Assembly (NCBI RefSeq): GCF_009931435.1
Contig: NZ_CP043414.1
Strand: one strand, 5' to 3'
DNA length: 64,000 nt
Origin: Escherichia coli
GTDB taxonomy: Bacteria > Pseudomonadota > Gammaproteobacteria > Enterobacterales > Enterobacteriaceae
The position numbers are program-made. Below, piece by piece: positions 1-3,000 of the stretch (positions are counted from its first letter, which is position 1; each line of letters begins with the position of its first letter).

Positions 1-3000
1 TGCGAAAATCGACAGTGATACCACCAGCGGAGCAACCAACTGCATGACGCTGACGCCCATGTTGCCCAGACCACCATTCAGACCCAGCGCGCCACCCTGC
101 TTCTGTTTCGGAAAGAAGAAGCTGATGTTTGCCATACTGGATGCGAAGTTCGCGCCAGCAAAGCCGCACAGCAGAGAGATGATGATGAAGACGCTATAAG
201 GCGTGGAGGTATCCTGCACGGCAAAACCCAGCCAGACGCAAGGAATAATCAGAATACCGGTGCTGAACGCCGTCCAGCGACGACCACCGAAGATAGGAAC
301 CATAAAGGAGTATGGAACACGTAACAACGCGCCAGAAACCGATGGCAGCGCCGTCAACATAAATAGCTGATCGGTCGTAAAATTAAAACCGACTTTCGGT
401 AAGTTCACCGCAACAGCACTGAATAACATCCATACGCAAAACGCCAGCAGCAGACAGGGAACGGAAATCCACAGGTTGCGGCTGGCAATACGTTGACCGC
501 GTTGTTGCCAGAACGCAGGATCTTCCGGTCGCCAATCTGTAATGACAGCTCCAGTAGCCCTTTCGGGGGCGGATGAGTGACTCATAGACACCTCTGATAC
601 TCGTTTCGATGTCTGCCACCTTAGTGTCTGTAGCTAAAGGCAATTTGATGTAAATCAAACGATAAGATAACTTTATCTATCATTGATATTTATCATTACC
701 CATAGTGAGTACAGTGATTTCATAAAAATTATGAGATTTTTCACGGTGCTGTAAAATCCCTACCCTTACCGATGTAAAGCGACTTACCACGCGGCAAATA
801 AGGAGTAACTCTTTCCGGGTATGGGTATACTTCAGCCAATAGCCGAGAATACTGCCATTCCAGAATGTATCGTCACATTCATTAAGGTTATTGCTCATTT
901 AAAGCCTGAAGGAAGAGGTTTGCATGCTTAAACGTTGTCTCTCTCCGCTCACCCTGGTTAATCAGGTTGCGCTTATTGTGTTGCTTTCTACTGCTATTGG
1001 ACTGGCAGGGATGGCAGTTTCTGGCTGGCTGGTGCAAGGCGTTCAGGGCAGCGCCCATGCGATCAACAAAGCGGGATCGCTGCGCATGCAAAGTTACCGT
1101 CTGTTGGCGGCAGTGCCATTAAGCGAGAAAGACAAGCCCTTAATTAAAGAGATGGAACAAACGGCATTTAGCGCCGAGTTAACCCGAGCAGCAGAACGAG
1201 ACGGACAACTGGCGCAACTACAGGGTTTACAAGATTACTGGCGTAATGAACTGATCCCTGCGCTGCTGCGTGCACAAAACCGCAAAACGGTGTCAGCGGA
1301 TGTCAGCCAGTTTGTTGCGGGGCTTGATCAACTGGTATCTGGTTTTGACCGCACCACGGAAATGCGCATTGAGACAGTGGTGCTGGTCCATCGGGTAATG
1401 GCGGTATTTATGGCACTGTTACTGGTGTTCACTATTATCTGGTTGCGGGCGCGACTGCTACAACCGTGGCGGCAGTTGTTGGCAATGGCGAGTGCCGTCA
1501 GCCATCGCGATTTTACCCAACGCGCGAACATCAGCGGGCGCAACGAAATGGCTATGCTTGGAACTGCGTTGAACAATATGTCTGCAGAACTGGCGGAAAG
1601 TTACGCCGTACTTGAGCAGCGGGTTCAGGAGAAAACCGCCGGGCTGGAACATAAAAATCAGATCCTCTCTTTTTTATGGCAGGCCAACCGCCGTTTGCAT
1701 TCCCGCGCCCCGCTGTGTGAACGCCTGTCACCTGTACTCAACGGCTTACAGAATTTAACCCTGCTACGTGATATCGAACTGCGGGTGTATGACACTGATG
1801 ATGAAGAGAATCATCAGGAGTTTACCTGCCAGCCAGATATGACCTGCGATGATAAAGGCTGTCAGCTCTGCCCGCGCGGTGTACTCCCCGTTGGCGATCG
1901 CGGCACAACCCTGAAGTGGCGGCTGGCTGACTCTCATACGCAGTACGGTATTTTGCTGGCAACCCTGCCGCAGGGGCGTCATCTTAGTCATGATCAACAA
2001 CAACTGGTGGATACCCTGGTTGAACAACTCACCGCCACGCTTGCGCTGGATCGCCATCAGGAACGTCAGCAACAGTTGATCGTGATGGAAGAGCGTGCCA
2101 CCATTGCGCGCGAACTGCATGATTCTATTGCCCAATCTCTCTCTTGCATGAAGATGCAGGTGAGTTGTTTACAGATGCAGGGCGATGCGCTGCCAGAAAG
2201 CAGCCGCGAACTGTTAAGTCAGATCCGTAACGAACTGAATGCATCCTGGGCGCAGTTGCGTGAATTGCTCACCACATTCCGCTTGCAGCTCACCGAGCCT
2301 GGATTACGTCCGGCGCTGGAGGCGAGTTGCGAAGAGTACAGCGCCAGGTTTGGCTTCCCGGTGAAGCTGGATTATCAATTGCCGCCTCGTCTGGTGCCTT
2401 CGCATCAGGCAATCCATCTGTTGCAAATTGCCCGTGAGGCATTAAGTAACGCCCTCAAACATTCGCAAGCGAGTGAGGTCGTGGTGACAGTGGCGCAAAA
2501 CGATAATCAGGTCAAACTGACCGTCCAGGATAACGGCTGCGGCGTGCCTGAAAATGCCATCCGCAGCAATCACTACGGCATGATAATAATGCGCGACCGT
2601 GCGCAAAGTTTACGGGGCGATTGCCGCGTCCGCCGTCGTGAATCAGGTGGCACCGAAGTGGTGGTCACCTTTATTCCCGAAAAAACTTTCACAGACGTCC
2701 AAGGAGATACCCATGAGTAATCAGGAACCGGCTACTATCCTGCTGATCGACGATCACCCGATGCTGCGAACTGGCGTAAAACAGCTTATTAGTATGGCAC
2801 CAGATATCACCGTGGTTGGCGAAGCGAGTAATGGCGAACAGGGTATTGAACTGGCGGAGTCTCTTGATCCCGATCTGATCCTGTTAGATCTCAATATGCC
2901 CGGCATGAACGGTCTGGAAACGCTGGATAAACTGCGCGAAAAGTCCCTCTCCGGGCGCATTGTGGTATTCAGCGTCTCTAATCATGAAGAAGATGTGGTC

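What the first reader, a model, noticed from the sequence alone, without database searches (positions are those of the whole stretch)
586..923. narK/narX divergent control region: perfect FNR palindrome and candidate NarL heptamers
An exact TTGAT-N4-ATCAA site lies at 645-658 upstream of narK. Further upstream, TACCCAT at about 698-704 fits the NarL heptamer consensus TACYYMT. This matches the known anaerobic and nitrate control of narK and supports the gene assignments at this end of the window.
Basis: partly seen in the sequence, partly recalled or inferred. Interest (0 to 1): 0.2.

Follow-up and report, generated by a model that had tools for sequence, protein, structure and literature searches.

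The report
Known narK–narX nitrate/anaerobic control region
This is the well-studied E. coli switch region between the nitrate transporter gene narK and the nitrate sensor genes narXL, with its oxygen-sensor (FNR) and nitrate-regulator (NarL) binding sites where textbooks put them, so the finding is correct but ordinary.

Summary
TTGATGTAAATCAA lies exactly at 645-658 and is the only perfect TTGAT-N4-ATCAA in the 64 kb window (0.10 expected). TACCCAT lies at 697-703, one base off the stated position, and is inverted relative to narK.

The 338-bp stretch 586-923 is the narK(-)/narX(+) intergenic region of an E. coli chromosome, with 4 SNPs against K-12. Published K-12 data for the identical site show FNR ChIP occupancy, a position of -41.5, and 15-fold FNR dependence of narK. 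The TACCCAT is one of ten database-listed NarL heptamers attributed to Li et al. 1994.

- a second, weaker FNR box at 683-696;
- the other NarL heptamers;
- an A/T-rich conserved block at 722-744, probably an IHF site.

Comparison of 79 other Enterobacteriaceae species shows what is under selection:
- FNR1 is perfect in all of them.
- The -10 box is conserved.
- The NarL heptamers at -98, -194 and -214 are conserved.
- The spacing is rigid: the distal heptamer sits 172.5 bp from FNR1 in 78 of 79 species.

The layout mirrors narG.

Verdict: already known, low interest.

The parts
1..585 (-). 5' part of narK (nitrate/nitrite antiporter). The ATG is at 585-583 and the gene runs off the window start.
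   Evidence: Translation gives MSHSSAPERATG.... RefSeq annotation of the matching genomes agrees.
590..596 (-). narK ribosome-binding site AGAGGTG, inside the conserved block CAGAGGTGTCTATG.
   Evidence: The block is conserved in the 80-sequence alignment.
610..610 (-). Inferred narK transcription start. It is computed from the published -41.5 position of the FNR site and was not measured here.
   Evidence: Myers 2013 Table 1 gives -41.5. The FNR1 centre at 651.5 minus 41.5 gives 610.
618..623 (-). narK -10 hexamer TAAGGT.
   Evidence: At a fixed offset from FNR1 the hexamer is TAATGT in 36, TAAGGT in 21 and TATGGT in 9 of 74 sequences. Mean information content is 1.53 bits.
645..658 (.). FNR1: a perfect FNR box (TTGATTTACATCAA in narK orientation), centred at -41.5. 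This is the class II activator site.
   Evidence: The site is perfect in all 80 intergenic regions, with 2.00 bits per half-site position. Its PatSer score of 17.06 equals nirB's; within part 1 of 2 of Table S6, the only part read, only yfiD scores higher. It is ChIP-seq bound.
674..680 (+). Listed NarL heptamer TATCTAT, at about -67 from the narK start.
   Evidence: Listed in the MotifAdjuster supplement and mapped. Not conserved: 0.37 bits.
683..696 (.). FNR2: a second FNR-like box, TTGATATTTATCAT, with one mismatch. It is centred at -79.5 from narK and at -32.5/-23.5 from the two TSS-seq narX starts.
   Evidence: At this position every non-Escherichia species has at least 3 mismatches in 10 half-site positions. 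It falls below the PatSer threshold in Myers Table S6.
687..693 (+). Listed NarL heptamer TATTTAT, at about -80, lying inside FNR2.
   Evidence: Information content 0.83 bits. It is part of the direct repeat TATCTATCATT / TATTTATCATT.
697..703 (+). It is at about -90 and inverted relative to narK.
   Evidence: It is the positional and orientational counterpart of the narG -89 heptamer. It is only weakly conserved: 0.98 bits against an intergenic mean of 1.03, and perfect only in the window (no other Escherichia sequences were in this count).
705..711 (-). NarL heptamer TACTCAC, at about -98.
   Evidence: At most one mismatch to TACYYMT in 74 of 74 sequences. It sits a fixed 56.5 bp from the FNR1 centre.
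713..722 (+). Two low-count narX transcription starts from TSS-seq, at 713 and 722, giving 5' leaders of 211 and 202 nt.
   Evidence: Kim et al. 2012 supplement (PMC3415461) lists 1277052 (2 reads) and 1277043 (3 reads) in U00096.2 coordinates. I converted the coordinates.
722..744 (.). Conserved A/T-tract block: GTGAAAAATCTCATAATTTTTAT in E. coli, GTGAAAAACCACACYTTTTTT in most other genera. It spans about -112 to -134. It is probably an IHF or DNA-bending site.
   Evidence: Mean 1.46 bits. It sits a fixed 91.5 bp from FNR1 in 72 sequences. Myers Table S6 flags IHF ChIP-chip overlap at the narX/narK site. No IHF consensus match was found in the block.
761..773 (+). Listed NarL heptamers TACCCTT and TACCGAT, overlapping by one T, at about -154 and -160.
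   Evidence: Not conserved: 0.20 and 0.37 bits.
784..790 (+). Position of the listed K-12 NarL heptamer TAACCAC (about -177). In this strain it reads TTACCAC because of SNPs at 785 and 791.
   Evidence: Information content 0.25 bits. The exact 36-mer 770-805 was found in only 14 of 5,426 E. coli genomes.
801..807 (-). NarL heptamer TACTCCT, at about -194.
   Evidence: Perfect TACYYMT in 69 of 74 sequences. It varies only at the degenerate Y positions: TACCCCT 25, TACTCCT 22, TACCTCT 21.
815..834 (-). Distal NarL cluster. It comprises TACCCAT (827-821, about -214), an overlapping heptamer (821-815; TACCCGG here, a better match in other genera), and an adjacent everted heptamer (828-834 on the + strand, TACTTCA).
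   Evidence: TACCCAT is perfect in 73 of 74 sequences and lies 172.5 bp from the FNR1 centre in 78 of 79. The neighbouring heptamers have at most one mismatch in 69 and 73 of 74.
845..851 (+). Conserved GAGAATA. It is a candidate -10 element of an unmapped proximal narX promoter, whose -35 position would coincide with the TACCCAT at 821-827. This is an inference.
   Evidence: TATTCTC is conserved in narK orientation. No transcription-start data support it.
924..2720 (+). narX (nitrate sensor kinase), followed by narL at 2713-3363.

Best explanation
Region 586-923 is the known divergent narK / narXL control region of E. coli.

narK is read on the minus strand from a class II FNR-dependent promoter. 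Under anaerobiosis, dimeric [4Fe-4S]-FNR binds the perfect box at 645-658. The box is centred 41.5 bp upstream of the start (about 610), so FNR overlaps the -35 position and recruits RNA polymerase to a promoter with a weak -10 (TAAGGT, 618-623).

Nitrate is sensed by NarX, which phosphorylates NarL. NarL-P then binds non-7-2-7 heptamers in two groups:
- a distal cluster at about -194 to -221 (801-834).

A conserved A/T block between the two groups (722-744) probably binds IHF or bends the DNA, bringing the distal NarL-P close to the promoter, as at narG.

The same DNA also serves narXL. FNR2 (683-696) overlaps the weak narX starts detected at 713 and 722. The distal NarL cluster lies about 100 bp upstream of narX.

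What is shown: the sequences, their statistics, their conservation and spacing, and published FNR occupancy and dependence in K-12.
What is inferred: the start at 610 in this strain, the IHF role, and which sites act on narX.
For: - **Identity.** The intergenic DNA differs from K-12 at 4 of 338 positions. None lies in FNR1, FNR2 or the -90, -98, -194 or -214 heptamers. narK and narX are annotated on either side.
- **FNR in the window.** The box is the only perfect match in the window, against 0.10 expected.
- **FNR in K-12.** Myers 2013 lists the identical box as ChIP-seq bound, at -41.5 and category 1 (directly activated). Its PatSer score is 17.06, and narK expression in fnr-/WT is 0.068. 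Grainger 2007 also lists narX/narK as an FNR ChIP-chip target.
- **NarL in the window.** There are 3 strict TACYYMT matches against 0.23 expected. Ten heptamers listed for narK and attributed to Li et al. 1994 all map inside 674-827. No 7-2-7 site with 2 or fewer mismatches occurs in the region.
- **Dependence in Salmonella.** narK there needs FNR and NarL but not NarP (PMC7038943), which fits the absence of a 7-2-7 site.
- **Conservation in 79 other Enterobacteriaceae species**:
  - exactly one perfect FNR box per intergenic region;
  - a conserved -10;
  - the -98, -194 and -214 heptamers at 1.6-1.9 bits, with variation confined to the degenerate Y positions;
  - distances of 56.5, 91.5 and 172.5 bp to FNR1 that are essentially invariant.
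- **Parallel with narG.** Strict heptamers lie at -214 forward, -194 forward and -90 reverse in narK, against -208, -195 and -185 forward and -89 reverse in narG. The -89 and -195 regions of narG are described as essential (PMC4549865).
- **narXL.** Positive autoregulation by NarL and in-vitro repression by FNR are reported.
Against: - No transcription start was measured for this strain, and the original mapping papers were not readable here. The start at 610 therefore rests on the -41.5 figure in Myers 2013 plus the conserved -10.
- The 722-744 block has no match to WATCAANNNNTTR at one mismatch or fewer, so the IHF assignment is weak.
Their contribution may be small or lineage-specific.
- The narX starts rest on 2-3 reads each.
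Confidence: 0.93

Rival explanations
1. The FNR boxes and NarL heptamers act mainly on narXL rather than narK. FNR would repress, or act as a class I regulator of, a long-leader narX promoter. NarL would autoregulate narXL. Any effect on narK would be secondary.
For: - TSS-seq places narX starts at 713 and 722.
- From those starts FNR2 is centred at -23.5/-32.5, a repressor position, and FNR1 at -61.5/-70.5.
- FNR repression of narX in vitro and NarL activation of narXL are cited by Ravcheev 2007 and Butcher 2022.
- The distal NarL cluster is closer to narX than to narK.
Against: - narK is 15-fold FNR-dependent, and the site is listed at -41.5 for narK.
- FNR1 keeps a fixed distance to the conserved narK -10 and lies 62.5-68.5 bp from the narK ATG in all 80 sequences.
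- FNR2 and the sequence around 713-722 are not conserved outside Escherichia.
- The narX starts have only 2-3 reads each.

This reading is best seen as an additional role for the region, not an alternative to the narK role.
Confidence: 0.04
2. The palindrome and the heptamer are chance consensus matches in AT-rich intergenic DNA and have no regulatory role.
For: A single TACYYMT heptamer in 338 bp is expected by chance about one time in five, given the window density. Ten of 100 shuffles of the whole window contain a perfect FNR box somewhere.
Against: - The FNR box is perfect in 80 of 80 species at a fixed position.
- It is ChIP-bound in K-12.
- Heptamers are enriched about 13-fold.
- Three heptamers are conserved with motif-compatible variation.
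Confidence: 0.01
3. The indel-free, roughly 210-bp conserved-spacing stretch (about 648-858) encodes a small protein or a structured RNA rather than a protein-DNA scaffold. A mechanical 72-aa ORF lies at 680-898 on the minus strand.
For: An ORF is listed at 680..898 on the minus strand. There are no length changes across genera between FNR1 and the distal block.
Against: - No reading frame is open in most species. The best frame is stop-free in 14 of 75, and the other five in none.
- Conservation shows no 3-base periodicity.
- There is no Rfam match at E of 1 or below.
- The conserved columns coincide with the FNR, NarL and -10 motifs.
Confidence: 0.01

Closest known systems
E. coli K-12 narK promoter (FNR at -41.5, multiple NarL heptamers), as recorded in RegulonDB/EcoCyc and by Myers et al. 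2013, and attributed in the sources read to Li, Kustu and Stewart 1994 and Bonnefoy and DeMoss 1992
   Same: It is the same locus. The intergenic DNA is 99% identical, with FNR1, FNR2 and nine of the ten listed heptamers base-for-base identical.
   Different: There are four SNPs, at 718, 785, 791 and 922. The SNPs at 785 and 791 change the listed -177 heptamer TAACCAC to TTACCAC, an allele whose exact 36-mer was found in only 14 of 5,426 complete E. coli genomes.
E. coli narG (narGHJI) promoter: FNR at -41.5, NarL at -89 and around -195, with IHF between
   Same: - It has a perfect FNR box at the same class II position.
- It has an inverted strict heptamer at -89/-90.
- It has forward TACCCAT and TACTCCT heptamers near -195 to -214.
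- It has no 7-2-7 site and is NarL-specific.
   Different: - The distal heptamers are spaced 20 bp start-to-start in narK and 13 bp in narG.
- narG has a third distal heptamer, at -185.
- The intervening sequences are unrelated. The best local similarity to the narK A/T block lies at -167 in narG, not at the equivalent position.
- The narK region is shared with a divergent gene, narX.
nirB promoter FNR site
   Same: It has the identical 14-mer TTGATTTACATCAA with the same PatSer score of 17.06, also at -41.5 and also co-regulated by NarL.
   Different: nirB uses a 7-2-7 NarL/NarP site close to the promoter. The narK region has none (MotifAdjuster text).

Membership tests
Class II FNR-activated promoter | A close match to TTGAT-N4-ATCAA | tested here: met
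   There is a perfect match at 645-658, the only one in 64 kb. It is perfect in all 80 enterobacterial intergenic regions.
Class II FNR-activated promoter | A site centred near -41.5 from the transcription start, with a -10 element at the matching distance | tested here: inconclusive
   Myers 2013 lists -41.5 for the identical K-12 site. A conserved TAAKGT hexamer lies 28.5 bp from the site centre to the hexamer's first base. The start itself was not measured here, and the primary mapping papers were not readable.
Class II FNR-activated promoter | FNR occupancy in vivo and FNR-dependent anaerobic expression | not testable with these tools
   Published for K-12: ChIP-seq and ChIP-chip peaks at narX/narK, and narK at 0.068 in fnr-/WT. 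In Salmonella, narK is lost in an fnr mutant. None of this was measured for this strain.
narG-type NarL-activated control region (NarL-specific, without a 7-2-7 site) | Several TACYYMT heptamers upstream of the FNR site, beyond chance | tested here: met
   There are 3 strict matches against 0.23 expected. The heptamers at -98, -194 and -214 are conserved across genera with variation only at degenerate positions.
narG-type NarL-activated control region (NarL-specific, without a 7-2-7 site) | No inverted 7-2-7 heptamer pair (the arrangement NarP requires) | tested here: met
   No TACYYMT-NN-AKRRGTA match with 2 or fewer mismatches occurs in 586-923. The -98/-90 pair is 7-1-7. Salmonella narK is NarP-independent.
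narG-type NarL-activated control region (NarL-specific, without a 7-2-7 site) | A proximal inverted heptamer near -89 plus a distal cluster near -200 | tested here: met
   Anchored comparison with K-12 narG gives narK at -90 reverse and -194/-214 forward, against narG at -89 reverse and -185/-195/-208 forward.
narG-type NarL-activated control region (NarL-specific, without a 7-2-7 site) | An IHF site between the proximal and distal NarL sites | tested here: inconclusive
   There is a conserved A/T block at 722-744 at fixed spacing, and IHF ChIP-chip overlap is flagged at the narX/narK site. No IHF consensus match was found in the block.
narG-type NarL-activated control region (NarL-specific, without a 7-2-7 site) | NarL-phosphate protection of the heptamers in vitro | not testable with these tools
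   The heptamers are listed in a curated database and attributed to Li et al. 1994. That paper was not available to read.
FNR-repressed narXL promoter | An FNR box overlapping the core promoter of a mapped narX start | tested here: inconclusive
   The FNR2 centre at 689.5 is at -32.5/-23.5 from the TSS-seq starts at 722 and 713, but these have only 3 and 2 reads. FNR2 is absent outside Escherichia. Repression is known here only from a citation of Takahashi 1994.

The most novel reading that the evidence does not exclude
The invariant distal block (815-834) together with the conserved GAGAATA box (845-851) may form a shared bidirectional NarL switch. It would act as the far-upstream, loop-delivered activator element for narK. 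At the same time it would be the core-promoter autoregulatory site, overlapping -35, of a conserved but unmapped proximal narX promoter starting near 857. On this reading, FNR2 and the long-leader narX starts at 713 and 722 would be Escherichia-specific additions. The complete absence of indels over about 210 bp in 78 of 79 species would reflect a single rigid nucleoprotein complex serving both genes.
Probability: 0.3. Interest if true: 0.3.

Novelty: already known. Interest (0 to 1): 0.1.

Why it matters
It confirms the gene assignments at this end of the window and shows that the strain keeps the canonical anaerobic and nitrate control of narK. Nothing new about FNR or NarL biology follows from the finding itself.

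The one modest gain is comparative. Across 79 other enterobacterial species, selection holds only a subset of the catalogued sites: FNR1, the -10 box, the NarL heptamers at -98, -194 and -214, and an A/T block. It holds them at invariant spacing. That could help decide which catalogued sites to trust when building NarL motifs.

Tried and rejected
- **IHF consensus.** A scan for WATCAANNNNTTR at one mismatch or fewer gave one hit in the region, at 653-665, overlapping FNR1. There was none in the conserved block. The window-wide count was below shuffle expectation, so the consensus does not support the IHF assignment.
- **7-2-7 NarL/NarP site.** Only 3-mismatch hits occur in the region, and window-wide counts are below expectation.
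- **Sigma-70-like promoter.** The promoter scan gave one hit (TTTACA-16-CATAAT, 755..728, minus strand) against 1.1 expected in shuffles. Its -35 is not conserved (0.67 bits), and the -10 overlaps the A/T block. I treat it as a chance match.
- **Similarity to narG.** The narK A/T block resembles narG 'AAAAATCTTAATAG', but that match lies at -167 in narG, not at the equivalent position. I do not use it as evidence.
- **Small-ORF and RNA readings.** Both were rejected.
- **Primary papers.** Kolesnikow 1992 (PMC207399) and my guessed id for Darwin and Stewart 1995 (PMC177110) are not held.
- **Transcription-start data.** The Cappable-seq table is truncated before 1.27 Mb. No Klebsiella narX or narK start was found in the Kim 2012 supplement.
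- **Literature search.** A search for 'narK' with '79.5' and '41.5' found nothing relevant. The role of FNR2 at narK therefore rests on position only.
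Full report
**What is in the sequence.**
Reading 1-2600 and listing ORFs shows a gene running off the window start on the minus strand, with its ATG at 585-583, and a 598-aa ORF on the plus strand from 924. The DNA at 400-1100 matches 5,415 of 5,426 complete E. coli genomes at 95-100% identity. In those genomes RefSeq annotates narK and narX on either side, with narL, ychO and ychN following. The span 586-923 given in the finding is therefore exactly the 338-bp narK-narX intergenic region. Against K-12 MG1655 it differs at four positions: 718, 785, 791 and 922.

**The observation.**
TTGAT-GTAA-ATCAA is at 645-658 as stated. It is the only perfect TTGATNNNNATCAA in 64 kb, against 0.10 expected from shuffles.

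It lies on the plus strand, so it is inverted relative to narK. One heptamer is not significant alone. But the region holds three strict TACYYMT matches (697 +, 801 -, 821 -) where the window density of 43 per 64 kb predicts 0.23.

**What is already known about it.**
- Myers et al. 2013 (PMC3688515) place narK among operons directly activated by FNR, with the site at -41.5.
- Their Table S6 lists TTGATTTACATCAA at narX/narK with PatSer score 17.06. This is the same 14-mer and score as nirB. In part 1 of 2 of the table, the only part I read, only yfiD (17.25) scores higher. The site lies under a ChIP-seq peak and overlaps IHF ChIP-chip enrichment.
- narK expression in fnr-/WT is 0.068.
- Grainger et al. 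2007 also list narX/narK as an FNR ChIP-chip target.
- With the site centre at 651.5, a position of -41.5 puts the narK start at window 610 and the -10 at TAAGGT, 618-623.
- The supplement of MotifAdjuster (PMC2718512) reproduces the ten NarL heptamers recorded for narK, attributed to Li, Kustu and Stewart 1994.
- In Salmonella, narK needs FNR and NarL but not NarP (PMC7038943). This fits the absence of any 7-2-7 heptamer pair in the region.

**Independent test by comparison.**
A search of one genome per species with NarX returned 80 Enterobacteriaceae loci. Of these, 79 have the divergent narK-narX arrangement, with intergenic lengths of 294-354 bp. The alignment and an ungapped comparison anchored on the FNR box gave the following.

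- Every intergenic region has exactly one perfect FNR box: TTGATTTATATCAA in 66 and TTGATTTACATCAA in 12. It lies 62.5-68.5 bp from the narK ATG.
- The -10 hexamer at a fixed offset is TAATGT, TAAGGT or TATGGT in 66 of 74 sequences.
- The -98 heptamer has at most one mismatch in 74 of 74.
- The -194 heptamer is a perfect TACYYMT in 69 of 74 and varies only at the degenerate positions: TACCCCT 25, TACTCCT 22, TACCTCT 21.
- The -214 TACCCAT is perfect in 73 of 74. It is flanked by two further heptamer-like elements that are not in the database list.
- An A/T-tract block at 722-744 is conserved, at 1.46 bits.

Distances to the FNR1 centre are essentially invariant: 56.5 bp for the -98 heptamer (70 of 70), 91.5 bp for the A/T block (72) and 172.5 bp for the -214 heptamer (78 of 79). 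The sequence in between is almost random, at 0.2-0.5 bits.

By contrast, FNR2 has at least 3 mismatches in 10 half-site positions in every non-Escherichia species. The heptamers at -67, -80, -154, -160 and -177 are at background. In that count it is perfect only in the window sequence (the other Escherichia loci were left out of it). Matches with 2 or fewer mismatches are somewhat enriched there, 29 of 74 against a 6% background.

**Comparison with narG.**
I anchored the K-12 narG control region on its own perfect FNR box. Strict heptamers fall at -208, -195 and -185 (forward) and -89 (reverse) in narG. In narK they fall at -214 and -194 (forward) and -90 (reverse). The two control regions share layout, not sequence.

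**Mechanism.**
The best-supported reading is the textbook one. FNR at -41.5 recruits RNA polymerase to a promoter with a poor -35. NarL-P bound at the -98/-90 pair and at the distal cluster supplies the nitrate signal. A bend at 722-744 brings the distal cluster to the promoter.

The bend is probably made by IHF, given the ChIP-chip overlap and the analogy with narG, although the IHF consensus is not met. The rigid spacing across genera supports a defined nucleoprotein architecture. A coding explanation for the lack of indels is excluded: there is no conserved open frame, no 3-base periodicity and no Rfam match.

**The narX side.**
- narXL is reported to be positively autoregulated by NarL (PMC9436347; PMC1805755).
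- It is reported to be repressed by FNR in vitro (Takahashi 1994, as cited).
- TSS-seq in K-12 gives two weak narX starts, with 2 and 3 reads, that map to window 713 and 722. From these starts FNR2 lies at -23.5/-32.5, a plausible repressor position.
- Neither FNR2 nor that promoter region is conserved outside Escherichia.
- A conserved GAGAATA at 845-851, with a -35 position coinciding with the invariant TACCCAT at 821-827, suggests a proximal narX promoter. There are no start data for it, so this is inference only.
- A complementing narXL clone carrying only 226 bp upstream of the ATG (PMC7419079) is compatible with a promoter downstream of 698, but it does not prove one.

**Verdict.**
Both the observation and the interpretation are correct, and the feature is already known. 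The interest is low.

Noticed in passing
window 54542-54555: A 14-mer identical to FNR2, TTGATATTTATCAT, lies in the umuD-hlyE intergenic region, centred 133.5 bp upstream of the hlyE ATG at 54682. From memory, this is where the known FNR/CRP site of the hlyE promoter lies; I did not check that against the literature.
   Followed up: partly
window 770-805 (SNPs at 785 and 791): This strain carries a rare allele in the listed NarL -177 heptamer, TTACCAC in place of TAACCAC. The exact 36-mer was found in only 14 of 5,426 complete E. coli genomes. The search needs a 28-base exact word, so other variants also drop out. By contrast, 640-712 is identical in 4,313 records.
   Followed up: partly
window 722-744: An A5...T5 block is strongly conserved across 70+ enterobacterial species at a fixed 91.5 bp from the FNR box, but it has no match to the IHF consensus. 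Its binding factor is unproven.
   Followed up: partly
window 815-821 and 828-834: Two NarL-like heptamers flank the -214 TACCCAT and are conserved across genera (at most one mismatch in 69 and 73 of 74). They are not in the ten-heptamer database list reproduced in the MotifAdjuster supplement, probably because the E. coli versions (TACCCGG, TACTTCA) are among the poorer matches.
   Followed up: partly
window 845-851: GAGAATA is conserved across genera about 73-79 bp upstream of the narX ATG. Only the third base varies (G, A or C), a pattern compatible with a -10 hexamer of an unmapped narX promoter.
   Followed up: no
window 400-1100 versus the E. coli genome collection: Thirteen of the 5,421 matching places for the narK-narX region lie on records labelled as plasmids. 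I did not look at them.
   Followed up: no
window 869-900: The roughly 29-bp length difference between the Escherichia/Citrobacter/Salmonella intergenic regions (336-354 bp) and most other genera (305-312 bp) lies entirely in the stretch just upstream of narX. That stretch is otherwise unconserved.
   Followed up: no
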